From Candidatus Saccharimonadales bacterium (GTDB taxonomy: Bacteria > Patescibacteriota > Saccharimonadia > UBA4664 > SCTI01): a stretch of DNA of 24,000 bases. Shown here piece by piece: positions 3,577 through 21,224 of this stretch (within the stretch, counting starts at the first letter, position 1; each line of letters opens with the position of its first letter). The stretch lies in contig DATKHK010000030.1 in the NCBI GenBank assembly GCA_035510255.1, forward strand, positions 3,345 to 27,344, given 5' to 3'. The position numbers and the translations under genes are program-made. A model generated the notes under the pieces. That model did not search any database and was not told where the DNA came from. It saw nothing but the letters and a program-made list of their open reading frames with translations.

Positions 3577-4455
3577 GTGGCCAATAAATCTCTGGAGGCC
3601 GAGGCGACGGCTCGGAAACGCGGTCAAATGCAAGCAGCCGGCTGGACGGTCGGCGTGGTGGTGGTAATTATCGTATTTATTCTGCTGGCTAAACTGGTCT
3701 CTAATGGCAGCTCCGGCGGCGGCACGGCTAGCAGCTCCGGGACTTCACCGGCGCCGGCTTCGTTGGTGGCCAAGGTCACCTCGCTAGAGGCAAGTGTGTT
3801 CGCGGCGGTTGGGCAGGGGAGCGCTACCTCGCTGCCCAAGCCGATTTCCGCACCGGCCCTGACCCAAAACGGCAAACCGCAAATTGTCTACCTTGGGGCC
3901 GAGTACTGCCCATATTGTGCCACCGAGCGCTGGCCAATGGTCATTGCGCTTTCACGCTTCGGTAGCTTCTCGAATCTTCAAACCACCCATTCCTCTTCCT
4001 CCGATGTCTACCCCAGCACCCAAACCTTCTCTTTCCATGGCGCTAGCTATAGCAGCCCATACATTGCCTTTACCGGTGTTGAGACCTACAGCAATGTACC
4101 GCAAGGTTCCGGCTACGCGCCGCTGGATACACCAACCTCGGCCGAGCAAAGCTTGCTCAATACCTACGATGCCCCGCCGTATGTTTCTTCCAGCTCCTCC
4201 GGTGCGATCCCGTTTGTCGATTTTGGCGGCAAGTACTTGATTTCCGGCGCTTCCTATAGCCCGCAGGTCTTGCAAGGTAAATCGGCTGATCAAATTGCCA
4301 GCGCGCTCAGCGATCCCTCGACCGATATCAGCAAAGGCGCTGTTGGTACCGCCAATGCCATTACGGCTGCCATCTGTAAAATGACCAACGACCAGCCCGG
4401 CAAGGTCTGCGGCACGTCGGTAATCCAAGGGCTTGAGCAAAAGCTTGGCGGGTAG
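3577..4455 (+). CDS. DUF929-type membrane-anchored thioredoxin-like protein with a CPYC active site
   Basis: GTG start preceded by GCGAGGAA. The N-terminal TM helix is [20 protein letters not shown], followed by a Ser/Gly linker. The block [33 protein letters not shown] is characteristic of DUF929. Confidence 0.8.
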
Positions 4456-4900
4456 GGAGGTGCCATTGCCGCGTTGGCTGGTGCCGGCGGCACTGGTGAT
4501 TATCGCGCTGGGTATTGGCGACACGGTCTATCTCACGATTGCCCATTACACTACTCCGGTTCTTCTCAGCTGCCCGGATACGGGGATCATTAACTGCGCC
4601 AAGGTTACGACGAGTAGTTACTCAAAAATTCTCGGCATCCCAGTGGCACTACTTGGTTTGATTTTTTTCCTGGGCAACCTGCCATTGCACCTGCCAGCCG
4701 CCTGGCGCTCGCCGAGTGTTTTAGTCCGCCGTCTGCGGCTGGCTGCCAGCGCCAGTGGTATCCTCATGGTGTTTTGGCTGTTGTATGTTGAGCTATTTCG
4801 TCTAAATGCCATCTGCTTATACTGCAGTACCGCCCACGTGCTGACGCTGCTCTTATTTATTGTGACGGTGTTTGGCACGGTTCTTACCAGCCAAGGTTAA
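4433..4900 (+). CDS. Vitamin K epoxide reductase (VKOR) family membrane oxidoreductase
   Basis: The protein has multiple TM helices. The loop Cys pair is [14 protein letters not shown] and the active-site Cxx[10 protein letters not shown], lies in the last helix region. The start is uncertain: TTG 4433, or GTG 4460 / TTG 4466 just after GGGAGG (4454-4459). The gene abuts or overlaps the DUF929 stop codon. Confidence 0.85.
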
Positions 4901-4949: not shown

Positions 4950-4978
4950 TTGAAATTTTGGAATAACACTTCTACTAT
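4950..4978 (+). promoter_or_regulatory. Sigma70-like promoter of the RiPP operon
   Basis: TTGAAA (4950-4955), a 17-nt spacer, then TACTAT (4973-4978). SD AAGGAG lies at 5011-5016, six nt before ATG 5023. Confidence 0.55.
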
Positions 4979-5022: not shown

Positions 5023-7203
5023 ATGGACCTTACAGATTTTCCGCTTGTCGTGATGTATGGCTTTCGCGCGTCTGCGGAGCGCTATACCTTTTTGGGACGC
5101 CAAGGCCATATCGATATACATGAGCATAGCGACGCCCTTGAAAAAATTCTACGTCTCTGTAGTGGATTGGCTACACTTGCGCAAGTCTGCCAAGCCAGCG
5201 AAGTTGAACAGGGTCTCTGCCTGCAGCTCATTGATGTCTTGGAGCAGAACGGTATCGTGATTGATAGCCGAAAGCTTTACCAGGTGTTTCATCAGGATTC
5301 TGCTAATCCAATGCAGTTTGGATCCGGTATTACGACTACAGGCCTGGAAAGTCTAATGAATCGGGCTGAGCAACGGGGCGTTGTTTCGATAGATGGCCGG
5401 GAGCAGGTCGACCTGCCGATCTGCTCAAATCTATTGGCTGGCGTCGATCAGCGCATCACAACCCGTGCGTTCGCAGGCCCCCTTCCGAGCCTACAAGCGA
5501 TTTCTAACGTGTTGGCTAGTGCCTACGGAATTGGAAAAGCTCATTGCGTGCCGTCGGCAGGAGGGTTATACCCGTTTAGTCTCTATTTTGTTGTCCAAGC
5601 AGTAAATCAGGTTCTGTCTCAAGGTGTTTACTGTTACAACCACCGATCACATTCACTTAGCTATTGCGGTATGCGAGATCGGTATCAAGTACAGGTTGCA
5701 CTAGATTCACTAGATATGTCTAACGGAGCGCCAATGGTAGTTTGCCTAGTTGCTTCAATGGACATAGTCGCAACTAAGTATGCCAATCGTGGATACCGCT
5801 ACGCCCTGATTGAGGCCGGACATATTGCGCAAAACATTCAACTGTTTTGCAGTTCGGAAGATTTTGGGGTTATGGAGTACGGTGGATTCGATGATAATCG
5901 GCTAAAGAAACTACTGGGGCTGGCTGGGGTTAATCAAATGCCTCTGTTGGCTCTCGGCGTTGGTAGGGTAGCGCAAGGCGAGGAGTCGCTTGATGCCGTG
6001 AAGCAAGCCGAGTATCAAGGGCTGACCGATGTTCTGGCTGGCAAGAGCAGCTTGCTGTATGGGCTAGCGCCTATTAAGGTGAAGTCAGACGATGACCTCT
6101 CCTTTTATGGGATGGTAGCTGAGTCGGCGTCGCCAGCCAGCTCGAAGAAGCCGCAATACGCGTTTGGCAGTGGGTACACTCGTCTTGATGCCGCAATTCG
6201 GGCTATGGGCGAGTGTTTTGAGCGCCATATTGGCTCCCAATTTCAGCAAGCTAGTAGCACGAAATGCAAAGCCTCCGACCTAGATGCGCCATATCTGTCT
6301 CCCAAAGATCTCACTCCATATACACCACAGCAAATCAAGAGACTGGGGGACATCTCGGCTTTTGATCCAGGGGCAGAGATGGTGTGGCTGCCGGGCTGTC
6401 AGTATCCTACAAAGACCAAGGTCTACATAGCAGCCGAGAATGTCTACTATCCAATCAGGGAGAGGGATCTAGGCCGCAAACCTTGTCACTTTGGCGACTC
6501 ATCTGGGTTGGCCTGCCACCCTGAGGCCTCGGCTGCTGTTATCGGTGGGTTGCTGGAGCTCATTGAGCGCGATGCGTTGATGGTTCATTGGTATGGCAAG
6601 AAAGTACCGCCAAAAATCCCAAACAAGGATCTGACTCATCATATTCGTTCACGTCTTGATTACTGGAAAGCTAAGGGGAAGACGGTCGAGGTGCTCGACC
6701 TGACTCTCGACAGTGTTCCAGTGGCATTGGTAGTGATTTACGGTGTTGGTTATCCTTATTTTACTGCCGGAGCAGCTGCCGAATTCAGCATGGAAGCGGC
6801 TATAGATAAGGGATTTCGTGAGGCTGAGCTCATGCTGGCTAGTTGGAGTACCGAGGCACCAACTTCCATCTCTCCAAAAGATATCTCAAGCCCAGAAGAT
6901 CATGGAGCCTATTATTTTGAGGAGGTAAATTTCTCAAAGCTTGAATGGTTGATGACCGGAGAGTATGGAGCCAGCGGGGCCAGCCAATGTAGTGCAGAGG
7001 ATCTGTTCTTGCGGTTTCAACCTGTAGTGGTAGAATTGCCTCATCAGTATCCAGTCCAACTAAAGGTGGTACGTGTTCTTTCTCAATTCCTTCTGCCTAT
7101 AAACTTCGGGTACGCCCGTGAGCTGGTAGCGCATCTGCGTTTTCAGCAACTCGGAATATCCTGGACACAGCCATACCCTGCAGTACCTCATTTTTTTTCC
7201 TGA
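5023..7203 (+). CDS. Tri-domain RiPP maturase: PqqD-like RRE, SagB-type FMN dehydrogenase and YcaO cyclodehydratase
   Basis: Residues ~10-80 (YTFLGRQGHIDIHEHSDALEKILRLCSGLATLAQVC..QLIDVLEQNGIVI) resemble a PqqD/RRE winged helix. Residues ~85-320 carry SagB/ThcOx motifs: LYQVFHQDS, TTRAF, VPSAGGLYPFSLYFVV, GVYCYNHRSHSL and NRGYRYALIEAGHIAQNIQL..GGFDD. Residues ~380-726 carry YcaO motifs: GSGYTRLDAAIRAMGECFERH and SSGLACHPEASAAVIGGLLELIERDAL. The C-terminus ends in the Pro-rich QPYPAVPHFFS. Confidence 0.9.
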   Translation: MDLTDFPLVVMYGFRASAERYTFLGRQGHIDIHEHSDALEKILRLCSGLATLAQVCQASEVEQGLCLQLIDVLEQNGIVIDSRKLYQVFHQDSANPMQFGSGITTTGLESLMNRAEQRGVVSIDGREQVDLPICSNLLAGVDQRITTRAFAGPLPSLQAISNVLASAYGIGKAHCVPSAGGLYPFSLYFVVQAVNQVLSQGVYCYNHRSHSLSYCGMRDRYQVQVALDSLDMSNGAPMVVCLVASMDIVATKYANRGYRYALIEAGHIAQNIQLFCSSEDFGVMEYGGFDDNRLKKLLGLAGVNQMPLLALGVGRVAQGEESLDAVKQAEYQGLTDVLAGKSSLLYGLAPIKVKSDDDLSFYGMVAESASPASSKKPQYAFGSGYTRLDAAIRAMGECFERHIGSQFQQASSTKCKASDLDAPYLSPKDLTPYTPQQIKRLGDISAFDPGAEMVWLPGCQYPTKTKVYIAAENVYYPIRERDLGRKPCHFGDSSGLACHPEASAAVIGGLLELIERDALMVHWYGKKVPPKIPNKDLTHHIRSRLDYWKAKGKTVEVLDLTLDSVPVALVVIYGVGYPYFTAGAAAEFSMEAAIDKGFREAELMLASWSTEAPTSISPKDISSPEDHGAYYFEEVNFSKLEWLMTGEYGASGASQCSAEDLFLRFQPVVVELPHQYPVQLKVVRVLSQFLLPINFGYARELVAHLRFQQLGISWTQPYPAVPHFFS

Positions 7204-7228
7204 CAACAAGAAAGGTAGTGCTAGTATC

Positions 7229-7408
7229 ATGCAGGCTCAAGACAGTATTAGGGTGAAGATTCGCCCATATGAGCACGCTCAACAGTCTGGCAGTGGCAGT
7301 AGCACAAGCGGCTGTGCTGGCAGCGGGAGCTGCGGCCATTCAGGTAACTCTCGAGGTGGGCCAACCACCCCTCTCGAGACAACCGATAGTGAGCATTCGG
7401 AGAGCTGA
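7229..7408 (+). CDS. Candidate azole-RiPP precursor peptide (59 aa), absent from the ORF track
   Basis: My translation is MQAQDSIRVKIRPYEHAQQSGSGSSTSGCAGSGSCGHSGNSRGGPTTPLETTDSEHSES*. The ORF starts 25 nt after the maturase stop on the same strand and sits upstream of the terminator. Residues 20-41 contain only S, G, T, C, A, H and N, with Cys29 and Cys35. The SD is weak (AAAGG, 13 nt upstream). Confidence 0.7.
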   Translation: MQAQDSIRVKIRPYEHAQQSGSGSSTSGCAGSGSCGHSGNSRGGPTTPLETTDSEHSES

Positions 7409-7492
7409 GGCAGTGGCATAAGCCGTCGCAGCAATGGGTGGTGCCAGGACTATAGATCCTATTAGGATTTGTGTTCTGGCACCATCTAATCC

Positions 7493-7526
7493 AAAAAGGT
7501 CTCGATATTCGAGGCCTTTCTTTTTT
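7493..7526. terminator. Bidirectional rho-independent terminator shared by the RiPP operon and the convergent metalloprotease gene
   Basis: AAAAA precedes the stem GGTCTCGA (7498-7505), loop TAT and stem TCGAGGCC (7509-7516). This gives 8 bp with one G-U pair. TTTCTTTTTT follows at 7517-7526. A/T tracts on both sides allow it to work in both orientations. Confidence 0.75.
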
Positions 7527-8166
7527 ACATAAAAACTTCAAGCAGCTTATCCGGCTCAATGGTAATGGAAGTCTTCAGGTCAAATTGCGGCAGGCTTTTC
7601 TTAGCGAGGGTATAGCCCAGAGAATACCCGATCCATTTACCATGCGGTCCGTTAAAAAACCATTGTGAATGATCATAGTCTTTTGAACCCCATTGCTTGC
7701 GTGCCTCATCCAGCGCCTCTACGGAAACATTCATCTCAGCCCATTTTGGTTTTGTGCCGCATCGAATCTCTTCGTAATAAGTTGCAAAACCTTCGCTTGT
7801 TAATGCTCCACCTAGCGTGCTGCCGTACCCCACAGTCTGCCACCGAGCCATGTGGTGCAGCTCGTGAGCAACCACTGCAATTAGCTCCTTTTGGGAAAGG
7901 TTTTTCCAGCTAGGGATCGCAATCATGGTTTCGGCGGGGAAGTAGGTATGGCCTCCTGGGTATTTACCCTCAATTGAAAGGGCTGGATTGTCGCGGATAT
8001 ATAGTATTTGCACGGGATTTTTAATGAAGCCTCTTAGTTTTGTAAACTCGTTTTCAACAATCCCCACCAGATCGCTGAAATCATAATCAGCTTTTTCATT
8101 ATTCAGTGCCACCAGACATAATGTCTTGCCGCTGACCTCGATTTTTCTTACAAAAAGTTTATCCAT
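7525..8166 (-). CDS. Putative Zn-metalloprotease (HExxH; DUF2268-like)
   Basis: The motif IAVVAHELHHMARW contains HELHH, with a downstream TSEGFATYYEE that could supply a third Zn ligand (Glu). No signal peptide is evident. The gene is convergent with the RiPP operon. Confidence 0.7.
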   Translation of the reverse strand: MDKLFVRKIEVSGKTLCLVALNNEKADYDFSDLVGIVENEFTKLRGFIKNPVQILYIRDNPALSIEGKYPGGHTYFPAETMIAIPSWKNLSQKELIAVVAHELHHMARWQTVGYGSTLGGALTSEGFATYYEEIRCGTKPKWAEMNVSVEALDEARKQWGSKDYDHSQWFFNGPHGKWIGYSLGYTLAKKSLPQFDLKTSITIEPDKLLEVFM

Positions 8167-8267: not shown

Positions 8268-8582
8268 ATGGTTATGTATAGAAAAGTCGCTGTAATTATG
8301 GGCAGCGTCATTGGGGCGGTAATCATTCTGGTGGCCGGCGGGACCTATGTTTTTCTAAAAACCACCTCTGGCAGCACTCCGAGTACCAGCGCCTCGGTCT
8401 CTAATCAATCGGCTAATTCGTCAGGTTCACAGGGCGGTAGCTCAACCGGTTCTTCTGGTAGTTCGACGCCGGGCTCCTCTAGCGGTGCATCTACGAGTAA
8501 CCAATCGATGTCCTCGCCCCATCCGCCACCCGCAGCGGCCACCGCATCTCATTCTCTTGCCACCCCGCTCATTAACTATTAA
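8268..8582 (+). CDS. Small membrane-anchored Ser/Gly/Thr-rich low-complexity protein
   Basis: The N-terminal TM helix is VAVIMGSVIGAVIILVAGGTYVF. About 60 aa of S/G/T-rich sequence follow, then a Pro/Ala tail. The start may be ATG 8274. I recognise no family. Confidence 0.55.
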   Translation: MVMYRKVAVIMGSVIGAVIILVAGGTYVFLKTTSGSTPSTSASVSNQSANSSGSQGGSSTGSSGSSTPGSSSGASTSNQSMSSPHPPPAAATASHSLATPLINY

Positions 8583-8770
8583 GCTAAGCGGCGATCTACA
8601 AAATAATTATATTGTAAAGTCAATAGAAAAAGTATTTACAATAATTCACAAATAGTTTATAACAAAGTTAAGCAGGCAGCGCTATAGCTAGCACTGGCTG
8701 TAGTACCCACAGGAGGCTTCGGCCTCACGACCCGGCCAGTACGCCGGCAGATGAAAGGAAGGTGAGCGCC

Positions 8771-9280
8771 ATGCGCGCGCTCAAGGATCGAGCCGGTAAA
8801 CCCGCAGAGAGGCTGGCGCTTGTTCTCTGCGGTGCTCTGGCTACGGCGCTCCTGATTGGCTTCCACGTGGAGGCCAAGACAGGCTCGCCAGTAAAGGCAG
8901 TCGCGGCTTCGGCCTCCTGCCAGTCGGACTTTCAGGGCGTTCCGTGTAAGGGGCCGATTCAGAGCCTCTACGCTTACGCCGGAGAAGGTAGTGGCGACAC
9001 CACCTATATTAAAGCTAAGGCAGGGAAGCAGAAAGTAGTTGGGGAACGGCTTGAAACCAATCCGCTCCCCAGGAACTACAGAGTGACGCAGCGTACCTTC
9101 ACCTGGCATTCACGCTCAAACATCGAAATCGTGGCTGTCTACGTGATACATAGGCCACTACGAGGCCACCCGACCTACCAAAAACTATCTACCGGCCGGC
9201 ATAGCGGCCACGCGACGTTGACGTTTGTGGGTGGCGGGACCCCGCCGCTTCTGCTCTTGCAAGGTCGGCATGGCCACTAA
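8771..9280 (+). CDS. Hypothetical small secreted protein (uncertain; the locus could instead be a structured RNA)
   Basis: ATG 8771 follows GGAAGGTGA. The N-terminus MRALKDRAGKPAERLALVLCGALATALLIGFHVEA looks like a signal peptide. The C-terminal third has odd composition and rare codons. The opposite strand is also open (8657-9109). TTTACA-17 nt-TATAAC at about 8635-8663 could be its promoter. Confidence 0.35.
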   Translation: MRALKDRAGKPAERLALVLCGALATALLIGFHVEAKTGSPVKAVAASASCQSDFQGVPCKGPIQSLYAYAGEGSGDTTYIKAKAGKQKVVGERLETNPLPRNYRVTQRTFTWHSRSNIEIVAVYVIHRPLRGHPTYQKLSTGRHSGHATLTFVGGGTPPLLLLQGRHGH

Positions 9281-9284
9281 GGTA

Positions 9285-9316
9285 GGGTGCCTCCCGCTTC
9301 CGAGCGGGAGGCACCC
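9285..9316 (+). terminator. Perfect 14-bp GC-rich hairpin after the 8771-9280 locus
   Basis: GGGTGCCTCCCGCT, loop TCCG, then AGCGGGAGGCACCC. The downstream T tract is weak (CACTTATTTCATCTC). Confidence 0.55.
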
Positions 9317-9410
9317 ATCTCCGCACTTATTTCATCTCATCGAGATGGGTCTTGCTCAATCAGCTCAAAATGGTTAAGCTTGACGTAAGTACTAACTGTG
9401 AGAAGGTTGC

Positions 9411-12400
9411 TTGCGTTTCAAAAGTATTGTTGCAATTGCTGTTGGAGTCAGCCTAGTTGTATTCGCTCCTGCTCTTCAGCGAGTGGGTTCACGGCTGCTC
9501 GCCCACGTTCCAGCCGCCTACGCGGCAAGTAAGGAAGACCCCCTGGGGGCAGGTAGCGACAGCGGCAGTGCACGTGATGACGCGGGTGGGCTGAGCGTCA
9601 CGGCAACCGACCCAAATGGCAATCCTGTGGGGGGGAGTGGTGCACCTATCTACCGAGGTGAGACGATTACTGTAACTCTGAGCTATACGGTTGCCCATCC
9701 CAGCGGCAGTACCTGGGATGCCTGGATGAACTTCGACAACCTTAGCCTCGACGGATGCTCTGACCCCACAAACGCTGGTACCTGGGGAGCGGGCTGTCTA
9801 GAGAATCAGTCAGGGTCGTCAACCTCGCAAGAGCTAGACGATGCTTTCGATACCAATGGCGGCGACAATGGGAATGTCGAGCAGAACGACAACTGCCCCT
9901 CATTTTATGACAACAGCGACTCTCCCTATGCCGATACTTCGCAGGAAACGAATGGCACAACACCTTTATTTGGCTTAGACTTCCCCTGGTCGGGAGGGTC
10001 TGGCACGGACGGCCACTCAACCTGTGGAACGGAGGGATGGGCGGCGGTATGGCATGGTGTGCATATGGATACCGTTGGCCAAAAAAACTATAGTGTAACC
10101 TACCACGTCAATCCTGACTTTGGGGCGGCGAACCAACAGCTCTGCGTCTCTGGCGATATCACACTGGGAGACGTCCAGGGTCTCTCGAACAACTCTGGCG
10201 ACCTCTACTACCGCACCAACGCCAACTCCCTTTGCCTTACCGTCAACGTACCGACAACCATCTCCGGTAACGTCCAATCCGATCCGTACGCTTCCACTGG
10301 CAAGAAATTTGGCAGCCAGACCAACATCGTTTCGGTAAGTGCCAACTGCCAGTACAATGACATTAATTCGGGTGATGGTGGCGGATATGTTTCCACTGAC
10401 GGAAGTGGAGCCTATAGCTTTGGCTGGTTCCAGGGCCAGCCGTTTTGTATAGGCCCGAACACTGAAGGTCCAAACGCGGCCAGTGCCTATACGTGGGTCT
10501 ATGACGGCACGACCTATATTAATGTCCAGCCTCCGAGTACATATTCTGGTGCTTCTGGGTTAGCCAATGATCCGCCAAACGGCAGTAATCCCAACACGTG
10601 GTCCACCTGGACCGATGCTCAGAGCTGTGGTCCCGGCGACCCCGATCCTACACACTGTGGCGGCTACAATATCTACTGGTTGGCTGGGGGTAACGCGCCC
10701 AATATAACCAAGACCGAGGTCTCACCGGGCAACGGCGCCAATCTGACACCTGGCGAAGCCGTAACCTACTCTGTCACTCTCGATAACCCCTATGACTACA
10801 ATATCAATTACGGAGGGGGCAACTCTGTGGGTATGGATGACTATGTCCCTAATAATATCGACCCCACGACGACCGGTGGGCCGAGTTATAGCATTGGTGG
10901 TAGCCCCGACCCGACCGGTAGCGTTCCGGGTGGGTGGTCGGTATCGGGTGTCATACCCTGCTACAGCATTAGTTATGGGCTTACTGGTCACCAGAACCTC
11001 GCGGGAGCTGGTTGTACCGCGCCCAATAGCGGCGTGGAAGGGGTAGCGTTTACCATATTGCCGGCTTATAGTTCCGTAACGATGACCTGGACGGGTACGG
11101 TTAAAACTGCGGCTGACATTGGGGTATACCCAGAGTATTTCCAGAGCGCTGCCGATCAAGCCCACGCCCAAGACCCTAACTGTAATGCCGCTTATGGCGA
11201 TGCGACCGGCCTCATGCCCTATTGCGAAGACTTTACCAATGGGCTGGAAGGCGTCTATAACGTGGCCGGGTATTTGGACCAAAACGGCAACTGGACGCCC
11301 TCGAATTCAACCTACAATCCGATCCCGGCAGCGGTTGATTGCCTGAGTAAGTACGCTGTTGGGCTGCAGCAGGATGACAGCGACACGGCGACCGTTAACA
11401 GCTGTAGTAGCGGCACACAGCCCCAATACTATGCCTATGTTAGTGGGCGCAATGACTATAACGGGCTAACTAATGGTGGCGCTATAGAAATCCAGGTCAC
11501 GCCCGATCCGAACCAAGGCCCCTTGTTCTACCAGCTTTACGACCAATCCTCAACGCAAGGGCTGGATCCCAACATTACCGTTCAGCCGGTATCCTCGCCG
11601 CTAATGACGAACGGAGTGACCGCCGGCTGTAGCAGCGGCTGTGGCGGCGGCGCCGGGCCGGTGGTTGGCTGGGCTGGCGGTAACGGCGAAGAGCTGTATG
11701 GGAGTGGGGCCGAGGGCAGCTATACAATCCCGATAACCTTAGCCAATAGCACCACTGCTATCGGTGGCAGAAATGAGAATACCTCTGATTTATGCATAAT
11801 TCAGTACTGGGCCAGCGGCCATCCGCTTAACTGTAATCCGGCCACCGAAGCCGGGGGCACTAGCGATCCCTCTGTGCCAATTTACTTCACCCATTACGAT
11901 GACCTGTCACCCTATCTGACGACCAGCGGCGGCGACGTCCACGCCGGCGGCTGCAACCAAGACACCACTACCGGCCAGTGTGCTACCCAGGCCAGCAGTG
12001 TCTGTCCATCTAGCGACCTCGGTAACAACGCGCCAGAGTTCGATAATACGGTCTTTAATAATAATCCCGACTCTAACACCATTGGCCAATACTTGGTGAC
12101 GGCTGGTGATAACCTCTCTGGCAATCCGTATGCCGGTACTTCGGCGGGTGTGCTGAGTGGCTCGAGTAACCTTTCGACAGCCAACGATACCGGTGTGATT
12201 ATTCGGCCCAACCTGTGTGGCGCGGCCACAGCCTACGCCGCTAAGCAGGGCGGGACGATTATCGCCGGTGCAGGTGTACTTAACGCTGGTGGCCAAAATG
12301 GGCCCAGCGGCAGCTTCCGCGACGATCCCGATATTTCCAGCGACCACTCCGGGTTGCCAGCCATGGAGTCCAGCCCCGACTCGAAGGTTATTACCGCCGA

Positions 12401-12965
12401 TCCACCGAGCGGCACCTACACGCTGGGTAGCTCGGACCCCAACAATCCAGCTACCATCGAGATCAACCATCGTTGGACGCTCTACGTTACCGGCAACCTC
12501 TACATCAACGCCAATATTAGTTATGGCTCCAACAATCCTACCGGAACCGGACTTAACGCTGAGCAGAACCATCCCTCGTTCGGGGTGATCGCCACCGGCA
12601 ACATCTATATCGGTAAAGACGTTACCAACCTTAGCGGCTTTTACACCTCGGCGGGCGTGATCAACACCTGCGCCGACGTTAACGGCAGTAGCTTGTCTTA
12701 CCAGGTTGGCGGCGGCGGCCCTGGCCCGGGCTCCGGTTCATATACGACGACCGACTGTGCTGACGAGTTGACGGTGCAAGGCATTATGTACGCCGACACC
12801 TTCCGCTTTAACCGCACCACTGGCTACAACACCACCACGCCGACCGTTTCCGAGAGCATTGACTATGACAATCGGCTATACACCGCCACGCCGCCAGCCT
12901 TCAACGACCTTGTAGGCTCCAGCCTGCTTTCTAAGTACTTAATAGAGCCTCTGCCAAGGTATTAA
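9411..12965 (+). CDS. Giant secreted Gly/Asn/Ser/Thr-rich, Cys-containing surface protein (candidate adhesin) with a DUF11-like repeat-domain segment
   Basis: TTG start after GAGAAGG. The signal peptide is MRFKSIVAIAVGVSLVVFAPAL...AAYA. The segment ITKTEVSPGNGANLTPGEAVTYSVTLDNP resembles the DUF11 'conserved repeat domain' signature. The C-terminal region has beta-helix-like periodicity (LYVTGNLYINANISYG...GVIATGNIYIGKDV). There is no LPXTG motif. Confidence 0.8.
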   Translation: MRFKSIVAIAVGVSLVVFAPALQRVGSRLLAHVPAAYAASKEDPLGAGSDSGSARDDAGGLSVTATDPNGNPVGGSGAPIYRGETITVTLSYTVAHPSGSTWDAWMNFDNLSLDGCSDPTNAGTWGAGCLENQSGSSTSQELDDAFDTNGGDNGNVEQNDNCPSFYDNSDSPYADTSQETNGTTPLFGLDFPWSGGSGTDGHSTCGTEGWAAVWHGVHMDTVGQKNYSVTYHVNPDFGAANQQLCVSGDITLGDVQGLSNNSGDLYYRTNANSLCLTVNVPTTISGNVQSDPYASTGKKFGSQTNIVSVSANCQYNDINSGDGGGYVSTDGSGAYSFGWFQGQPFCIGPNTEGPNAASAYTWVYDGTTYINVQPPSTYSGASGLANDPPNGSNPNTWSTWTDAQSCGPGDPDPTHCGGYNIYWLAGGNAPNITKTEVSPGNGANLTPGEAVTYSVTLDNPYDYNINYGGGNSVGMDDYVPNNIDPTTTGGPSYSIGGSPDPTGSVPGGWSVSGVIPCYSISYGLTGHQNLAGAGCTAPNSGVEGVAFTILPAYSSVTMTWTGTVKTAADIGVYPEYFQSAADQAHAQDPNCNAAYGDATGLMPYCEDFTNGLEGVYNVAGYLDQNGNWTPSNSTYNPIPAAVDCLSKYAVGLQQDDSDTATVNSCSSGTQPQYYAYVSGRNDYNGLTNGGAIEIQVTPDPNQGPLFYQLYDQSSTQGLDPNITVQPVSSPLMTNGVTAGCSSGCGGGAGPVVGWAGGNGEELYGSGAEGSYTIPITLANSTTAIGGRNENTSDLCIIQYWASGHPLNCNPATEAGGTSDPSVPIYFTHYDDLSPYLTTSGGDVHAGGCNQDTTTGQCATQASSVCPSSDLGNNAPEFDNTVFNNNPDSNTIGQYLVTAGDNLSGNPYAGTSAGVLSGSSNLSTANDTGVIIRPNLCGAATAYAAKQGGTIIAGAGVLNAGGQNGPSGSFRDDPDISSDHSGLPAMESSPDSKVITADPPSGTYTLGSSDPNNPATIEINHRWTLYVTGNLYINANISYGSNNPTGTGLNAEQNHPSFGVIATGNIYIGKDVTNLSGFYTSAGVINTCADVNGSSLSYQVGGGGPGPGSGSYTTTDCADELTVQGIMYADTFRFNRTTGYNTTTPTVSESIDYDNRLYTATPPAFNDLVGSSLLSKYLIEPLPRY

Positions 12966-13011: not shown

Positions 13012-14052
13012 ATGGGACTATTTTCAAAAGAGGTGGATTACTTTGGCGTTGATATCGGAGCCGGCACTATCCGATTGGTTCAGCTAAAGAAAGGCGCCCA
13101 AAAGCCAATACTACAAACCTATGGGTCGGTGCCGGTTGACCCGAGCTGGGTGCAAGCTGATTCGCCGGCCGATATTCCGCGTATCGCCGGTGTGCTCAAG
13201 CAGCTCGTCAAGGACACGAAGGTTTCGACCAAGTATGTCATCGCCGGACTACCTTCTTCAAAGGTTTTTTCCAGCGTGATTTCGACCCCCAAGCTCAGTC
13301 ATCAGGAGCTGGGGAAGGCGATTATGTTGCAAGCCGACCAGTACATTCCGATGGCGGTTAAGGATGTGAAGCTGGATTGGGTGGTGATTGGACCCGGTAA
13401 GACCGAAAAAGAGCAGCAGGTCCTGGTGGTGGCAGCGCCCAACACCGTGACCGAGCGCCAGGTTAGTATTTATGAACAGGCCGGTTTGGAGTTGGTAGCA
13501 CTGGAGCCAAACGCGGTAGCACTGGCCCGCGCAGTAGTGCCGCCGGGAGACCTAGCGGTGCTAGTACTTGATATTGGTAGCCTGTCGGCTGACATCACCA
13601 TTGTTCAAGGCAATATACCCAAGCTGTTGCGGTCGATTAATATCGGTGGCGTTTCATTGGTGCGGGCGGCCTCCCAAGGCCTCGGCCTTGATGAAGCCCA
13701 GGCCGACCAGTTTGTGCGCAAATTTGGCCTGACCCAAACCAAACTTGAGGGCCAGGTTTACAAAGCCCTTAAGCCGGTGCTTGACCAATTGGTTGAGGAG
13801 ATTGATAAGTCGGTAAAGTTTTTCCAGAGCCAGTACCCCACAATCAAGTTCGAGAAACTGGTACTTACTGGCGGTACAACCGGCATGCCGGAGCTGCCAA
13901 CCTACCTCTCTACGGCGGTGGGCTTACCGGTTGAGATTGCCAACGCCTGGGCCAAGGTCGGGTACGCCGCCACCCTTCAAGATTCGCTCATGGGCAATGC
14001 TACTGAGTTTGGCGTGGCTGTCGGTTTGGCGGAGCGAGACCTATTGGTATGA
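13012..14052 (+). CDS. pilM: Type IV pilus assembly protein PilM (actin-like ATPase fold)
   Basis: The N-terminus reads YFGVDIGAGTIRLVQLKK. Downstream are VLDIGSLSADITIV and the C-terminal LVLTGGTTGMPELPTYLS. Length and position before the pilN/O-like genes fit PilM. Confidence 0.9.
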   Translation: MGLFSKEVDYFGVDIGAGTIRLVQLKKGAQKPILQTYGSVPVDPSWVQADSPADIPRIAGVLKQLVKDTKVSTKYVIAGLPSSKVFSSVISTPKLSHQELGKAIMLQADQYIPMAVKDVKLDWVVIGPGKTEKEQQVLVVAAPNTVTERQVSIYEQAGLELVALEPNAVALARAVVPPGDLAVLVLDIGSLSADITIVQGNIPKLLRSINIGGVSLVRAASQGLGLDEAQADQFVRKFGLTQTKLEGQVYKALKPVLDQLVEEIDKSVKFFQSQYPTIKFEKLVLTGGTTGMPELPTYLSTAVGLPVEIANAWAKVGYAATLQDSLMGNATEFGVAVGLAERDLLV

Positions 14053-14636
14053 ACGTACGGCTCAACCTTGCCCCGGAAGTTTATCAGGCTAGCCAGCGGG
14101 CTAAGCAGCGTAAACAGCTGGCTACCAGCATTGGCGTGCTGGTGTCTGCAGTAAGCGTAGGCATAGTGGTGGTGAGCCTGATAATCCTTGGCGGCCAAAA
14201 AGTCTTACTGGCAGCTCTTAATAACTCGGTAAAACAGCGCCAAAACAAGGTATCCCAGTATGCCGAGCTAGGAACCGCCGCTACCGCCCAGCAGCACTTG
14301 CAGGCCTGGTCTCAGTTGGCTGGCACCCAGGGTCATTTCAGTAATTTCTTTCAGATTCTCCAAGATTTCGCACCGCAAGGAGTAGCTGCTACCCAGGTGA
14401 GTGTAGATAACACCAATACCATTACGATGACCGGTGACGCCAACTCATACGACCTGGTAACCAAGTTTGCCAAAGCTCTAGAGGCTAGCAATGTTCAGGT
14501 CGGTCCGTCGCACGCTGCCACCAATCAGCCATACTTTACCAATGTGCAACTCAGCAACGTGAGCAATAATGGTAGTGATGGTATTGGCTTCCAGTTAACC
14601 ACCACCATGTCGAGCGAGGTGACCAGTGGCCAGTAA
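14049..14636 (+). CDS. pilN: PilN-like type IV pilus alignment protein
   Basis: The ATG overlaps the pilM stop (ATGA). The N-terminal LNLAPE resembles the INLLP motif. A basic stretch, a single TM helix (IGVLVSAVSVGIVVVSLIIL) and a coiled region follow. Confidence 0.7.
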   Translation: MNVRLNLAPEVYQASQRAKQRKQLATSIGVLVSAVSVGIVVVSLIILGGQKVLLAALNNSVKQRQNKVSQYAELGTAATAQQHLQAWSQLAGTQGHFSNFFQILQDFAPQGVAATQVSVDNTNTITMTGDANSYDLVTKFAKALEASNVQVGPSHAATNQPYFTNVQLSNVSNNGSDGIGFQLTTTMSSEVTSGQ

Positions 14637-15318
14637 AGCTGCACCCGCGAAGAAGCCGGCTGCCACCACTCCGCCCTCTCAGGCAGTGGTGAAGCGCGAT
14701 AGTAAGGCCAATAATTACATCGCGGTGATTGCGGTCGTTACCGTACTCGTGGTGTTGGTGTGTGGGTTAGCTGCCAAATCTCTCCTAGGATCAATAATCC
14801 TTGATGGCAAGCTGATTGTGCATACCAACCAAGCTAAAACCGATTTGGATACTAAGCTACGGAACATACCTATTTTGATTAGCAACTATAACGCGTTAGG
14901 AAGCAAGCAACAGCTCATCGCCGATGCCCTGCCAAATGACCCTGATTTTCCGGCGCTGATTAGCATTGCTCAGGCCATGAGTGCCGACTCAGGGCTAACC
15001 CTCAAGTCGATCTCGCCTGATAACAGTGCTTCTAATACCGCTGTCAACCCAGGTGCCGTTGGTGCCGCTGTCACTCCGGGAGCCACTACATCTGTATCGA
15101 GCACCAAGCCAACTCCCTACTTGTTCGACGTAGAGGTGGCTGGCACCTATCCCCAAGTGGTGCACTTCTTTGATGACGTGCAGCTTTCGGCCCGGCCGAT
15201 GAAGGTAGTTAACACTGATTTTAACGGCGATGGCTCGGCGCTACAGGTCTCAATCATACTCCAGACCTATTACCAGGGCGCGGCCAATACCAATGACAAG
15301 ACGGAGACGCTCAAATGA
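14626..15318 (+). CDS. pilO: PilO-like type IV pilus alignment protein
   Basis: The GTG start overlaps the pilN end. There is a single TM helix (YIAVIAVVTVLVVLVCGLAA) and a coiled segment. LIADALPNDPDFPALISIAQAMSADSGLTLKSISP resembles the PilO core. Confidence 0.65.
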   Translation: MASKAAPAKKPAATTPPSQAVVKRDSKANNYIAVIAVVTVLVVLVCGLAAKSLLGSIILDGKLIVHTNQAKTDLDTKLRNIPILISNYNALGSKQQLIADALPNDPDFPALISIAQAMSADSGLTLKSISPDNSASNTAVNPGAVGAAVTPGATTSVSSTKPTPYLFDVEVAGTYPQVVHFFDDVQLSARPMKVVNTDFNGDGSALQVSIILQTYYQGAANTNDKTETLK

Positions 15319-15587
15319 AAAGTAAAGAAATCGTTGAGCTAGTAGTAGCAGTATTGATTCTAGCGATTGCTGGATATGTTGTGTACAAGATAGTAGTGCC
15401 ATCGTCCCCAAGCAGTTCCGGGGCTAGTCATACAGTTACCTACGTGCAGGTGACACCGGTCGATCCCAATTTTGACTCTAACAGCCTTAACGAACTAGGG
15501 GATAGCAGTAAGGTGCGTGACTTCTATAGCCCGCCAGATCTTAGTAGTGGGCTCAATAACAGTCAGCCCTTTGGCCCCCTTCAGTAG
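15315..15587 (+). CDS. Small single-pass membrane protein, pilus-cluster associated, unknown family
   Basis: The ATG overlaps the pilO stop (ATGA). The TM helix is IVELVVAVLILAIAGYVVYKIVV, followed by about 60 periplasmic or extracellular residues. Confidence 0.5.
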   Translation: MKSKEIVELVVAVLILAIAGYVVYKIVVPSSPSSSGASHTVTYVQVTPVDPNFDSNSLNELGDSSKVRDFYSPPDLSSGLNNSQPFGPLQ

Positions 15588-15615
15588 AATCAGAGCGACT
15601 ATAGCGTACCGCTTA

Positions 15616-15624
15616 TGCTAAAAT
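15616..15624 (+). promoter_or_regulatory. Extended -10-like element TGCTAAAAT upstream of pilB
   Basis: This is a TGnTAAAAT match, followed by AGAAGGAG (15632-15639) and ATG 15658. Confidence 0.4.
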
Positions 15625-15657
15625 AGGCATAAGAAGGAGTACCCTGAGACTATACCC

Positions 15658-17415: not shown

Positions 17416-17424
17416 GGAATTATT

Positions 17425-19739: not shown

Positions 19740-19747
19740 TAAAATGC

Positions 19748-19776
19748 TTGACAGCATAACTACTTTGCCTAATACT
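19748..19776 (+). promoter_or_regulatory. Sigma70-like promoter of the major pilin gene
   Basis: A consensus TTGACA (19748-19753) is followed by a 16-17 nt spacer and TAATACT (19770-19776). A strong SD, AAGGAGGTGA, lies at 19829-19838. Confidence 0.6.
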
Positions 19777-19845
19777 GAGAAGCAAGTAGTATATTAACTT
19801 AACAGTATCATTATTGATTTCGACAACTAAGGAGGTGAGAACCTA

Positions 19846-20268: not shown

Positions 20269-20294
20269 ACGTTAGCTAACGGTCTCTGCCAAAT

Positions 20295-20317
20295 GCCGCC
20301 CTTCGGGGCGGTTTTTG
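20295..20317 (+). terminator. Rho-independent terminator after pilA
   Basis: CCGCCC, loop TTCG, then GGGCGG, followed by TTTTT (20312-20316). Confidence 0.8.
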
Positions 20318-20334
20318 GTTACCCTGATACCCTC

Positions 20335-20343
20335 TGATATACT
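20335..20343 (+). promoter_or_regulatory. Extended -10 element TGATATACT, 6 nt upstream of the pilD ATG
   Basis: The TGnTATACT match ends at 20343 and the ATG is at 20350 with no SD. This geometry fits a leaderless mRNA. Confidence 0.5.
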
Positions 20344-20349
20344 GGGGCT

Positions 20350-21150: not shown

Positions 21151-21206
21151 TTTTAGGCCACTTTTCAAAATAATCTACTAACTCCTGTTACAACAGATAC
21201 CGCTTA

Positions 21207-21215: not shown

Positions 21216-21224
21216 GCGGGTAAG

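What the first reader, a model, noticed from the sequence alone, without database searches (positions are those of the whole stretch)
7229..7408. Unannotated 59-aa ORF with a microcin B17-like Ser/Gly/Cys core and an acidic C-terminal tail
The supplied ORF track has no entry for this ORF; its shortest entries are 60 aa. I translate it as MQAQDSIRVKIRPYEHAQQ-SGSGSSTSGCAGSGSCGHSGNS-RGGPTTPLETTDSEHSES.

- **Core:** residues 20-41 contain only S, G, T, C, A, H and N. The contexts SGC (residues 27-29) and GSC (33-35) match the Gly-Ser-Cys / Gly-Cys contexts that are heterocyclised in microcin B17.
- **Flanks:** a 19-residue charged N-terminal segment could be the leader. The acidic tail (E50, D53, E55, E58) could be a follower or recognition element.
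- **Position:** it lies 25 nt after the maturase stop on the same strand.
- **RNA structure:** the ORF contains an interrupted hairpin built from two CTCGAG palindromes (7349-7355 pairing with 7373-7379) enclosing GTGG/CCAC. This might affect mRNA stability or the precursor:enzyme expression ratio.

The weak point is the poor SD (AAAGG at 13-nt spacing).
Basis: seen in the sequence. Interest (0 to 1): 0.8.

Follow-up and report, generated by a model that had tools for sequence, protein, structure and literature searches.

The report
Unannotated azole-peptide precursor gene in Saccharibacteria
The 59-codon ORF is very probably a real, unannotated precursor of a ribosomal azole-containing peptide, made by a compact three-gene cluster in an ultra-small Saccharibacteria genome; clusters of this kind have already been reported bioinformatically in related candidate-phyla bacteria.

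Summary
ORF 7229-7408 (+) exists as described, 25 nt after a 726-aa gene. It holds the longest S/G/T/C/A/H/N-only run in the window.

The upstream protein is a single-chain RRE + SagB-type FMN dehydrogenase + YcaO cyclodehydratase, from a Candidatus Saccharimonadales MAG. It has no E1-like domain.

About 30 distant relatives of this enzyme (28-36% identity), in Patescibacteria and other phyla, have a small ORF beside them. These ORFs share the same build:
- a short leader with a beta-strand motif (window IRVKIRPYE);
- a Gly/Ser/Cys-rich core;
- usually a strong Shine-Dalgarno site.

Cys29 and Cys35 of the window peptide align with conserved Cys. The motif GCA..SCGHSG is kept in three loci through synonymous codon changes. 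No alternative frame is consistently open.

A DUF2268 HExxH protease (7525-8166, -) sits beside the enzyme in 10 of the 20 related genome loci compared, as it does in the window. It is the likely leader peptidase.

The ORF is therefore best read as a linear azol(in)e peptide (LAP) precursor. 'Microcin B17-like' holds for composition only: McbA homology, McbB and McbEFG are absent.

The acidic tail is not conserved. The in-ORF hairpin is only modestly significant. Stronger hairpins and a terminator lie downstream.

Novelty: new member of a known kind. CPR LAP clusters were reported in 2020.

The parts
4950..4978 (+). Promoter-like site (TTGAAA-17-TACTAT) in the 122-nt gap between the VKOR gene and the maturase gene. 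It is a possible operon promoter.
   Evidence: Consensus scan only. The number of sites found in the region equals chance expectation, so this is a weak inference.
5023..7203 (+). 726-aa tri-domain azole synthetase (NCBI HUC86888.1, 'YcaO-like family protein', Candidatus Saccharimonadales bacterium).
   Evidence: Pfam and NCBIfam; identity and name; AF2 model with pLDDT 82.9, best PDB matches LynD and TruD.
5023..5307 (+). N-terminal RiPP recognition element (RRE; aa 1-95): four beta-strands, then three helices and a wing. It is the predicted leader-binding domain.
   Evidence: AF2 model with pLDDT >90 for most of aa 10-90. The best Foldseek PDB hits are the RRE domains of TruD, LynD, McbB, TigE, MccB, lasso B1 and MadB, at modest E-values (best 6e-3). 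Weak profile hits fall on the PqqD, LynD, MusD and PbtF RRE regions.
5446..5967 (+). SagB-type FMN dehydrogenase domain (aa 142-315), with the invariant Lys252-Tyr253 motif.
   Evidence: PF00881 at 5e-16; TIGR03605 at 98.6 bits, above its 78.4 cutoff. K252/Y253 are invariant in 14 homologues. PDB profile hits include McbC, BmdC and ThcOx/CyaGox.
6166..7200 (+). YcaO cyclodehydratase domain (aa 382-726).
   Evidence: PF02624 at 2.7e-38; best NCBIfam model TIGR03604 (SagD), below its cutoff. E397/E400/R401, E512/E515/R516 and E600 are invariant, as is the C-terminal P722-H723.
7210..7215 (+). Weak Shine-Dalgarno-like GAAAGG, 13 nt upstream of the ATG.
   Evidence: Sequence. Duplex with the anti-SD is -5.6 kcal/mol, mid-range for genes in this window.
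7229..7285 (+). Leader of the precursor (aa 1-19, MQAQDSIRVKIRPYEHAQQ), with the family beta-strand motif IRVKIRPY.
   Evidence: A leader-only HMM built from relatives ranks this ORF first of 564 window segments. V9 is invariant and RPY recurs in the alignment.
7286..7351 (+). Core (aa 20-41, SGSGSSTSGCAGSGSCGHSGNS). Cys29 and Cys35, and probably some Ser, are the predicted sites of thiazole/oxazole formation.
   Evidence: Composition run. C29 and S34 are at least 90% conserved, and the consensus is GC...GSCGHSG. The motif is kept through synonymous codon changes.
7352..7408 (+). Non-conserved acidic C-terminal extension (aa 42-59, RGGPTTPLETTDSEHSES) plus the stop codon.
   Evidence: No relative has it.
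7349..7379 (+). Imperfect hairpin inside the tail-coding part of the ORF.
   Evidence: -18.7 kcal/mol, z = -2.5.
7435..7488 (+). Long near-perfect hairpin in the 3' UTR. It is a possible 3'-end stabiliser.
   Evidence: the 7405-7535 region has z = -7.6. It is single-copy in the window and matches no Rfam family.
7495..7527 (.). Bidirectional intrinsic terminator: an 11-bp stem flanked by an A-run and a T-run. It lies between the convergent precursor and protease genes.
7525..8166 (-). DUF2268 family Zn-metalloprotease (213 aa, HELHH motif). It is the candidate leader peptidase.
   Evidence: PF10026 at 5.7e-19; sequence. Homologues sit beside the maturase in 10 of the 20 related genome loci compared, besides the window itself. 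HExxH is conserved.

Best explanation
ORF 7229-7408 encodes the precursor (A peptide) of a linear azol(in)e-containing peptide. It is the last gene of a two-gene operon, maturase then precursor. A convergent DUF2268 protease gene completes a three-gene cluster.

**Proposed mechanism (inferred from family knowledge):**
1. The leader forms a beta-strand around IRVKIRPY. It docks onto the beta-sheet of the N-terminal RRE of the 726-aa enzyme.
2. The YcaO domain uses ATP to cyclodehydrate Cys29 and Cys35, and possibly neighbouring Ser/Thr, to azolines.
3. The SagB-type FMN domain of the same polypeptide oxidises the azolines to thiazoles/oxazoles.
4. The DUF2268 Zn-protease then removes the leader.

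No E1-like (C) or Ocin-ThiF (F) partner is involved. The RRE sits on the dehydrogenase end of the fusion, as in the curacozole CzlBC/CzlD pair.

**Shown here:** the domain content of the enzyme, the RRE fold, the conserved catalytic motifs, the recurrence of a leader+core small ORF and of the protease in related loci, and protein-level conservation of this frame.

**Inferred, not shown:** translation of the ORF, the modification chemistry and sites, the cleavage step, and any bioactivity.
For: - **Enzyme identity.** Pfam and NCBIfam assign the domains. PDB profile hits include McbC, McbD, LynD, TruD, MusD, ThcOx and BmdC. The full-length model is closest to LynD at E 5e-23.
- **RRE.**
- **Catalytic motifs.** K252-Y253 and the ExxER pairs are invariant.
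- **Recurrence.** 17 of 20 related genome loci and at least 13 metagenome loci have a maturase-adjacent small ORF with a leader plus a G/S/C core. In 11 of the 17 it lies 9-100 nt downstream on the same strand, as in the window. Most have GGAGG-type SD sites.
- **Family HMM test.** An HMM built without the window ranks this ORF first of 564 window segments (E 2.5e-5, with HMMER's composition filter switched off; with it on there is no hit). The leader-only HMM also ranks it first (E 0.039).
- **Independent cross-check.** 8 of the top 11 leader-HMM hits among 8181 six-frame segments of the metagenome loci are maturase-adjacent Cys-rich small ORFs.
- **BLAST.** With composition correction switched off, the top six hits of the window peptide among 25,030 segments are small ORFs lying beside a maturase gene.
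- **Conserved residues.** Cys29 and Ser34 are conserved and V9 is invariant.
- **Synonymous codon turnover.** The conserved residues are encoded by different codons, including AGY<->TCN serine switches.
- **Alternative frames.** They are not conserved.
- **Protease.** Conserved in position and motif.
- **Precedents.** CPR LAP clusters with YcaO, nitroreductase, peptidase and an adjacent precursor (PMC7298704). An RRE-dehydrogenase fusion that recruits substrate for an RRE-less YcaO (PMC11575548).
Against: - **No close relative.** The best maturase identity is about 35%, so there is no true ortholog comparison and no formal dN/dS.
- **Weak pairwise similarity.** Peptide similarities are weak one by one (E 0.03-0.25) and partly driven by composition. 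With composition correction they fall to E >= 0.6. The full-peptide HMM gives no hit when HMMER's bias filter is on.
- **Weak SD.** It is weak and 13 nt from the ATG, whereas most relatives have strong, well-spaced SDs.
- **Atypical tail.** No relative has the 18-aa acidic tail.
- **Frameshifted closest relative.** In the closest maturase relatives (L082/L083), the leader and the Cys-rich core are in different frames. Precursors in this family can therefore be broken.
- **No export or immunity gene.** None is recognisable in the window.
- **YcaO score.** The domain scores below the TIGR03604 cutoff, and its best PDB sequence match among YcaO domains is a thioamide-forming archaeal enzyme.
- **No expression or mass-spectrometry data.**
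Confidence: 0.8

Rival explanations
1. The ORF is a chance open frame in the 3' untranslated region of the maturase mRNA. Its low-complexity composition has no coding meaning.
For: - The SD is weak.
- The ORF is not called by gene finders and is absent from protein collections.
- Peptide similarities to relatives are weak and sensitive to composition correction.
Against: - The same leader+core architecture recurs next to about 30 distant homologues of the enzyme.
- The leader motif is detected independently of core composition.
- Cys positions are conserved.
- Synonymous codons turn over beneath conserved residues.
- The ORF holds the longest S/G/T/C/A/H/N run in the window.
Confidence: 0.06
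2. The precursor is genuine in origin, but this copy is decaying or its product differs from a classic azole peptide. Two versions are possible:
- The C-terminal extension comes from stop-codon loss or a small insertion, and the peptide is poorly processed.
- The YcaO domain performs other chemistry (thioamide, amidine or azoline only).
For: - The tail is unique and contains a palindrome.
- The SD is weak, unlike in relatives.
- The precursor of the closest relatives is frameshifted.
- The YcaO domain is below the SagD cutoff, and its best PDB sequence hit among YcaO domains is the thioamidation enzyme MJ1094.
Against: - The maturase ORF is intact, with all invariant catalytic residues.
- A fused SagB dehydrogenase with the Lys-Tyr motif has no role without azolines.
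- The core Cys residues align with the family.
- By structure, the full-length model is closest to the azoline-forming LynD and TruD.
Confidence: 0.1
3. The real gene is on the opposite strand: the 80-aa ORF 7097..7339 (-), which one gene caller picked, or the 103-aa ORF 7248..7559 (-).
For: - A gene caller chose the 80-aa antisense ORF in an independent assembly.
- Antisense frames of GGC/AGC-rich DNA tend to stay open.
Against: - Neither antisense ORF hits any family.
- The 80-aa ORF overlaps 107 nt of the maturase 3' end.
- The 103-aa ORF would run through the terminator and the long hairpin, and it starts inside the protease gene.
- Across 31 family loci, each antisense frame is open in only 4-10. 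In the window each has at least one stop across the peptide ORF.
- The six-frame HMM searches hit only the sense frame.
Confidence: 0.02
4. The in-ORF hairpin (7349-7379) is a functional RNA element that sets the precursor-to-enzyme ratio or the mRNA 3' ends. This adds to the coding reading and does not replace it.
For: - The hairpin exists and persists in the fold of the whole transcript region.
- The 3' part of the transcript is highly structured (z = -7.2 to -7.6).
Against: - The hairpin is only modestly unusual: z = -2.5, and 5 of 200 shuffles fold as well.
- It lies inside a translated region, in the non-conserved tail.
- The precursor is the last gene of the operon, so no attenuation of downstream enzyme genes is needed.
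- The much stronger 7435-7488 hairpin and the 7495-7527 terminator are sufficient to define and protect the 3' end.
Confidence: 0.1

Closest known systems
LAP clusters of candidate-phyla-radiation bacteria (Sharrar et al. 2020, mBio, PMC7298704)
   Same: - The host is a CPR/Patescibacteria genome.
- The cluster consists of a YcaO, a nitroreductase-type dehydrogenase, a peptidase and a short adjacent precursor with Ser/Cys in the core.
- Two relatives found here, L016 (Yanofskybacteria) and L017 (Saccharibacteria), have the split RRE-SagB + YcaO gene pair with the same kind of peptide.
   Different: - Here the dehydrogenase and YcaO are one polypeptide.
- The host is a Saccharimonadales MAG, a lineage not among the CPR groups that paper lists as carrying LAP clusters.
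- That paper gives no leader motif, RRE or protease family, and its clusters are also uncharacterised experimentally.
Microcin B17 system (McbA + McbBCD synthetase, E. coli; PMC6395948)
   Same: - The core is rich in Gly/Ser/Cys, with Gly-Ser-Cys and Ser-Gly-Cys contexts.
- Both pathways pair a YcaO cyclodehydratase with an FMN dehydrogenase. McbC and McbD are detectable homologues.
- The leader is bound through an RRE; the McbB RRE is among the structural matches.
   Different: - There is no detectable sequence homology to McbA.
- There is no E1-like McbB scaffold. The RRE is fused to the dehydrogenase-YcaO chain.
- There is no McbEF exporter and no McbG immunity protein in the window.
- The leader protease is a DUF2268 enzyme instead of TldD/E. 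The TldD/E role is from my own knowledge.
- The core has only two Cys and far fewer Gly.
Curacozole CzlBC/CzlD and the cyanobactin oxidase ThcOx (PMC11575548; PDB 5LQ4)
   Same: - A leader-binding RRE/E1-like domain is fused N-terminally to the FMN dehydrogenase.
- In curacozole, the YcaO (CzlD) lacks its own peptide-binding domain and depends on CzlBC to act.
- ThcOx/CyaGox is a detectable homologue of the dehydrogenase part.
   Different: - Here the YcaO is covalently fused to the RRE-dehydrogenase.
- The product is predicted to be linear, not macrocyclic.
- The precursors are unrelated.
Cyanobactin heterocyclases LynD/TruD/PatD
   Same: - They are the best structural matches of both the N-terminal RRE and the full-length model.
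- They are also single-chain enzymes with an RRE at the N-terminus and a YcaO at the C-terminus.
   Different: In LynD and TruD the middle domain is the E1-like remnant. Here that position holds a SagB-type FMN dehydrogenase, so one chain would do both cyclodehydration and oxidation.

Membership tests
Linear azol(in)e-containing peptide (LAP/TOMM) biosynthetic cluster | A YcaO-family cyclodehydratase is encoded next to the precursor. | tested here: met
   PF02624 at 2.7e-38 on aa 382-644 of the gene that ends 25 nt upstream. By structure it is closest to LynD and TruD.
Linear azol(in)e-containing peptide (LAP/TOMM) biosynthetic cluster | The YcaO scores as an azoline-forming SagD-type enzyme (TIGR03604) above the curated cutoff. 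| tested here: not met
   TIGR03604 is the best NCBIfam model, but it scores 124 bits against a cutoff of 219. The enzyme is a divergent member.
Linear azol(in)e-containing peptide (LAP/TOMM) biosynthetic cluster | The ATP/Mg2+-binding acidic motifs of YcaO are intact. | tested here: met
   E397/E400/R401, E512/E515/R516 and E600 are invariant in 14 homologues. Their assignment to the ATP/Mg site rests on my own knowledge of YcaO structures.
Linear azol(in)e-containing peptide (LAP/TOMM) biosynthetic cluster | A SagB-type FMN dehydrogenase with the Lys-Tyr motif. | tested here: met
   TIGR03605 scores 98.6 bits, above its 78.4 cutoff. K252-Y253 are invariant.
Linear azol(in)e-containing peptide (LAP/TOMM) biosynthetic cluster | An E1-like (C) or Ocin-ThiF-like (F) partner for leader recognition. 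| tested here: not met
   No ThiF/E1 or TIGR03603/TIGR03882 hit on any ORF of the window, and no such gene recurs in related loci. A stand-alone RRE fold at the N-terminus takes that role.
Linear azol(in)e-containing peptide (LAP/TOMM) biosynthetic cluster | A short precursor with an N-terminal leader and a Cys/Ser/Thr-rich core. | tested here: met
Linear azol(in)e-containing peptide (LAP/TOMM) biosynthetic cluster | Azole or azoline rings in the mature product. | not testable with these tools
   This needs expression and mass spectrometry.
Microcin B17 family | The precursor is homologous to McbA. | tested here: not met
   A profile of the peptide family finds no McbA chain among PDB sequences at E <= 10. 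The resemblance is compositional.
Microcin B17 family | A McbB (E1-like) scaffold in a BCD synthetase complex. | tested here: not met
   There is no E1-like domain. Only the RRE subdomain resembles McbB.
Microcin B17 family | McbEF export pump and McbG pentapeptide-repeat immunity protein. | tested here: not met
   No ABC transporter or pentapeptide-repeat hit among the window ORFs.
CPR LAP clusters (PMC7298704) | YcaO + nitroreductase + peptidase + adjacent short precursor in a CPR genome. | tested here: met
   All four elements are present in a Saccharimonadales MAG. The peptidase is conserved in 10 of the 20 related genome loci compared. Here the YcaO and nitroreductase are fused.
RRE-dehydrogenase fusions (ThcOx / CzlBC type) | An N-terminal leader-binding RRE fused to an FMN azoline oxidase. 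| tested here: met
   The RRE fold is followed by a SagB domain. ThcOx/CyaGox are detected as homologues. Leader binding itself was not tested.

The most novel reading that the evidence does not exclude
The cluster is a fully self-contained, E1-less, three-gene azole-peptide pathway of about 3.1 kb. One polypeptide (RRE-dehydrogenase-YcaO) recognises, cyclises and oxidises the precursor, and a DUF2268 protease matures it. An ultra-small epibiotic Saccharibacterium would use the product, a microcin-B17-like thiazole/oxazole peptide, as a toxin or signal against its actinobacterial host or its competitors. This would be the first RiPP with a defined role in CPR-host biology, and the simplest known azole synthetase.
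Probability: 0.15. Interest if true: 0.7.

Novelty: new member of a known kind. Interest (0 to 1): 0.45.

Why it matters
- **CPR biology.** Biosynthetic gene clusters are rare in CPR/Patescibacteria, and their roles are unknown (PMC9765116; PMC7298704). This locus gives a concrete, compact and testable example in Saccharibacteria, the CPR group with cultivated epibionts and genetic tools.
- **Family definition.** The analysis defines a leader motif (h-x-V-x-[VI]-x-P-Y-like strand), an RRE, a single-chain dehydrogenase-YcaO enzyme and a DUF2268 protease. These are shared by about 30 loci across several phyla.
- **Annotation.** Gene callers miss these precursor genes, or call the wrong strand.
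- **Enzymology.** A one-protein azole synthetase would be a convenient tool for peptide engineering. This is a genome-mining lead, not a new principle.

Tried and rejected
- **Exact look-up of the peptide** in the 15-billion-protein collection: not present.
- **Closer relatives.** A back-translated leader pattern (IRVKIRPYE) found nothing in the metagenome contigs. The nearest maturase homologues are only 32-36% identical. A formal dN/dS test was therefore impossible. I used synonymous-codon inspection of shared motifs instead.
- **Pfam and NCBIfam on the peptide:** no family.
- **Pfam on the N-terminal domain:** only weak winged-helix hits and no PqqD hit. The RRE assignment rests on the structure model.
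- **The C-terminal 199 aa of the maturase** alone finds nothing in the PDB by sequence. Comparing its C-terminal P-x-x-P-H motif with the canonical PxPxP motif therefore remains inconclusive.
- **Rfam:** no match anywhere in the window. No tRNA or tmRNA.
- **Literature.** Searches for a described dehydrogenase-YcaO fusion, or a YcaO/DUF2268 link, found nothing. One of these searches was wasted on the ambiguous term 'BD fusion'. The Chem Rev 2017 YcaO review was not held.
- **Second precursor.** ORF 8268-8582 is also Ser/Gly-rich. I rejected it because it has an N-terminal transmembrane segment, no Cys and no leader motif.
- **Internal promoter-like site 7200-7227**. I rejected it as the precursor's promoter. 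Its -10 ends 1 nt before the ATG, so a transcript would start inside the ORF. The number of promoter-like sites in the region equals chance expectation.
- **DUF929 and VKOR genes upstream.** I rejected them as cluster members because they do not recur in related loci.
Full report
**1. Observation**

The ORF is exactly as described. It runs from 7229 to 7408 on the + strand, starts with ATG and encodes 59 aa: MQAQDSIRVKIRPYEHAQQSGSGSSTSGCAGSGSCGHSGNSRGGPTTPLETTDSEHSES.
- Residues 20-41 use only S, G, T, C, A, H and N.
- SGC is at residues 27-29 and GSC at 33-35.
- The acidic tail residues, the 25-nt gap after the upstream stop (7203) and the GAAAGG 13 nt before the ATG are all correct.
- The 22-residue compositional run is the longest among all 564 six-frame segments of at least 25 aa in the window. 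The next longest is 16.
- The hairpin (arms 7349-7360 and 7368-7379) exists. It is only modestly unusual: -18.7 kcal/mol, z = -2.5, with 5 of 200 shuffles folding as well.
- The peptide is not in a 15-billion-protein collection.
- In an independent assembly of the same organism, a gene caller called the antisense 80-aa ORF instead.

**2. The neighbour**

Gene 5023-7203 encodes a 726-aa protein. It is identical to NCBI HUC86888.1, 'YcaO-like family protein', from a Candidatus Saccharimonadales MAG. It has three parts.
- **Dehydrogenase.** A SagB-type nitroreductase/FMN dehydrogenase domain spans aa 142-315. TIGR03605 scores above its cutoff.
- **Cyclodehydratase.** A YcaO domain begins at aa 382. 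PF02624 scores 2.7e-38. The best NCBIfam model is the SagD cyclodehydratase model, though below its cutoff.
- **RRE.** The first ~95 residues match no Pfam family convincingly. An AlphaFold model (pLDDT >90 for most of aa 10-90) shows four beta-strands followed by a three-helix winged bundle. Its best PDB matches are the RiPP recognition elements of TruD, LynD, McbB, TigE, MccB, a lasso-peptide B1 protein and MadB. These matches are modest (best E 6e-3, about 80 aligned columns at 2.5-3 A rmsd).

Other points about the enzyme:
- The full-length model (pLDDT 82.9) is closest to LynD and TruD. MusD, archaeal YcaOs, BmdC, McbD and ThcOx follow.
- In an alignment of 14 homologues, several residues are invariant: the dehydrogenase Lys-Tyr pair (K252-Y253), the YcaO acidic motifs (E397/E400/R401, E512/E515/R516, E600) and a C-terminal P722-H723.
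- No room or signal exists for an E1-like domain. No ThiF/E1 gene is found in the window.

The enzyme is therefore an RRE-dehydrogenase-YcaO single chain.

**3. Comparative evidence for the small ORF**

The nearest homologues of the enzyme are only 28-36% identical. No true ortholog is available, but the family is wide. It includes Saccharimonadales, other Patescibacteria, a Mycolicibacterium, several Proteobacteria and a Bdellovibrionales MAG.

*Recurrence and position*
- In 17 of 20 related genome loci I found a small ORF beside the enzyme gene. Each has a short leader with an alternating beta-strand-like motif, about 10-15 linker residues, and then a Gly/Ser/Cys-rich core. Leader examples are KVRIRPYK, VAVTITPYE, LKVTVSEY, LKIRVQSE, FEWRVTVEPRR and FKVTRKPY, against window IRVKIRPYE.
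- In 11 of these 17 loci the ORF lies 9-100 nt downstream on the same strand, as in the window.
- Nearly all have a GGAGG-type SD directly before the leader ATG.
- A second, independent set of metagenome loci gave at least 13 more such ORFs. L084 has ...VKVKVRPYKG...GGACSGGGTC. L085 has a core, NGCATSCGHSGSD, that closely matches L011 (NGCASSCGHSGSH) and the window (SGCAGSGSCGHSGNS).

*Statistical checks*
- An HMM built from the relatives' peptides, without the window, ranks the window ORF first of 564 six-frame segments (20 bits, E 2.5e-5; next best 9 bits). This holds only with the composition filter off. With it on, there is no hit.
- A leader-only HMM, which is independent of core composition, also ranks the ORF first (E 0.039).
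- The same leader HMM was applied to 8181 six-frame segments of the independent metagenome loci. Maturase-adjacent Cys-rich ORFs take 8 of its top 11 hits.
- The window peptide was run by BLAST against 25,030 segments from all 160 loci. With composition correction switched off, the top six hits are all small ORFs lying beside a maturase gene (E 0.03-0.25). With correction, only two remain among the top hits, at E >= 0.6.

*Conservation in this frame*
- In the subfamily alignment, V9 is invariant. C29 and S34 are at least 90% conserved. The consensus reads ..V..RPY.G...GC...GSCGHSG. One of the ten aligned sequences is my frameshift-corrected reconstruction of the L082/L083 precursor.
- The shared residues are encoded by different codons in different loci. 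Cys is TGT or TGC, His is CAT or CAC, Gly is GGC, GGA or GGT, and Ser switches between AGY and TCN. The leader's R-P-Y behaves the same way. This is the pattern expected for selection on the protein in this frame.
- Across 31 family ORFs, each of the five alternative frames is open in only 3-10. In the window all five carry at least one stop.

*One caveat.* In the closest maturase relatives (L082/L083, 35% identity), the leader (MSASRKKAGKLSIRVTFRPYRG...) and a Cys-rich core (..LCDDCSDDCGGSCQYSGRRLPK*) lie in different frames around an A-run. That copy may be a pseudogene, an assembly error or a programmed frameshift.

**4. The cluster**

- A DUF2268 family protein (7525-8166, - strand, 213 aa, HELHH motif) converges on the precursor gene.
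- Its homologues sit beside the enzyme gene in 10 of the 20 related genome loci compared, as in the window, in either orientation. The HExxH motif is conserved. It is the obvious candidate leader peptidase.
- Nothing else recurs. The upstream DUF929 and VKOR genes and the downstream type IV pilus genes are ordinary Saccharibacteria genome context.
- No exporter or immunity gene is recognisable.

**5. RNA features**

- Downstream of the stop codon lie a 54-nt near-perfect hairpin (7435-7488) and a bidirectional intrinsic terminator (7495-7527). The terminator is shared with the convergent protease gene. The region folds with z = -7.6.
- These structures, more than the in-ORF hairpin, are the likely determinants of the mRNA 3' end and its stability.
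- The in-ORF hairpin lies in the tail-coding segment, which no relative shares.
- A promoter-like site at 4950-4978 sits in the gap before the maturase gene. This is a consensus match only.
- The SD of the precursor (-5.6 kcal/mol) is weak compared with relatives, but about the median for genes in this window. The 25-nt gap after the maturase stop would also allow re-initiation; this is inference.

**6. Mechanism (best explanation, about 0.8)**

The ORF is the precursor of a linear azol(in)e peptide.
1. The leader strand docks on the RRE sheet.
2. The YcaO domain cyclodehydrates Cys29 and Cys35, and perhaps adjacent Ser/Thr.
3. The fused SagB domain oxidises the azolines to azoles.
4. The DUF2268 protease removes the leader.

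Domain content, fold, motifs and comparative conservation are shown. Translation, chemistry, cleavage and activity are inferred.

There is an experimental precedent for the logic of placing the RRE on the dehydrogenase. In the curacozole pathway the YcaO CzlD lacks a peptide-binding domain. It works only together with the E1-like/dehydrogenase fusion CzlBC (PMC11575548).

**7. Comparison with known systems**

- **CPR LAP clusters** are the closest described kind (Sharrar et al. 2020). They consist of a YcaO, a nitroreductase, a peptidase and an adjacent precursor. They were found in Microgenomates, Parcubacteria and other CPR groups, and none has been characterised. The present locus has the same set of components, with the two enzymes fused, in a Saccharimonadales genome. 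Split versions occur among the relatives (L016, L017).
- **Microcin B17.** The resemblance is in core composition and general enzymology only. It does not extend to precursor homology, the E1-like scaffold, the exporter or the immunity protein.
- **Earlier surveys.** Large LAP surveys required an E1-like or ThiF-like partner and set aside stand-alone YcaOs (PMC7136475). That may be why this architecture has received little attention. I found no paper describing a dehydrogenase-YcaO fusion or a YcaO-DUF2268 association. The library is incomplete, however.

**8. Verdict**

- It is a new member of a known kind, not a new kind. Unannotated RiPP precursors next to YcaO enzymes are a familiar situation, and CPR LAP clusters are already on record.
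- The value lies in three things: a clear and testable minimal pathway in Saccharibacteria, the definition of a leader motif / RRE / protease family, and the single-chain enzyme.
- Interest is 0.45.
- The acidic tail as a 'follower' and the in-ORF hairpin as a regulator remain unsupported.

Noticed in passing
L083 2599-2760 (same in L082 2770-2930): In the closest maturase relatives (35% identity, two metagenome samples), the precursor appears frameshifted. The leader MSASRKKAGKLSIRVTFRPYRGTDPVKTW.. is in one frame. The Cys-rich core MGLCDDCSDDCGGSCQYSGRRLPK* is in the -1 frame. The shift is needed near GTCAAAACATGGGG. This could be a pseudogene, an A-run assembly error or a programmed frameshift.
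   Followed up: partly
window 7435-7488: A 54-nt near-perfect hairpin lies between the precursor stop and the terminator. With the terminator, the region folds at z = -7.6. It is single-copy in the window and matches no Rfam family. It may stabilise the mRNA 3' end.
   Followed up: partly
window 7097-7339 (-): An automatic gene caller, run on an independent assembly of the same organism (Logan SRR8676597), called an 80-aa antisense ORF here. It overlaps the maturase 3' end and the first half of the precursor ORF. It is probably a spurious call that masks the real gene.
   Followed up: yes
window 7200-7227: A promoter-like site (CTGACA-16-TAGTAT with a TG extension) ends 1 nt before the precursor ATG. 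A transcript from it would start inside the ORF. It is probably a chance match, since the number of sites in the region equals expectation.
   Followed up: partly
window 8268-8582 (+): A 104-aa ORF has an N-terminal transmembrane segment followed by a long Ser/Gly/Thr-rich low-complexity region and a Pro-rich end, with no Cys. It looks like a membrane-anchored surface protein and not a second precursor.
   Followed up: partly
window 8583-9410: This stretch of about 830 bp contains only ORFs with no family hit (8657-9109 on the - strand, 8762-9280 on the + strand). It has no tRNA and no Rfam match. Its content is unexplained.
   Followed up: no
window 9411-12965 (+) and 13012-23887: A 1184-aa protein with no Pfam hit directly precedes a complete type IV pilus locus: PilM/N/O, PilB-like and PilT-like ATPases, PilC, prepilin peptidase and three N-methyl-motif pilins. 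This is typical of Saccharibacteria. The large protein may be pilus-associated.
   Followed up: no
window 3577-4900 (+): A DUF929 (DsbA-like) gene and a VKOR gene overlap by 23 nt just upstream of the cluster. They form a disulfide-bond formation pair. They do not recur next to the maturase in related loci.
   Followed up: partly
L007 3605-3757 (-), Mycolicibacterium sp. 120266: A cultured actinobacterium carries a homologous fused enzyme (28% identity). A divergently oriented candidate precursor, MDDLSTLDVVIETRTQASAVANSGSGGNCGNSGSSSNGGGGGGCHIRTED, lies beside it. This could be a tractable host for studying the enzyme family.
   Followed up: no
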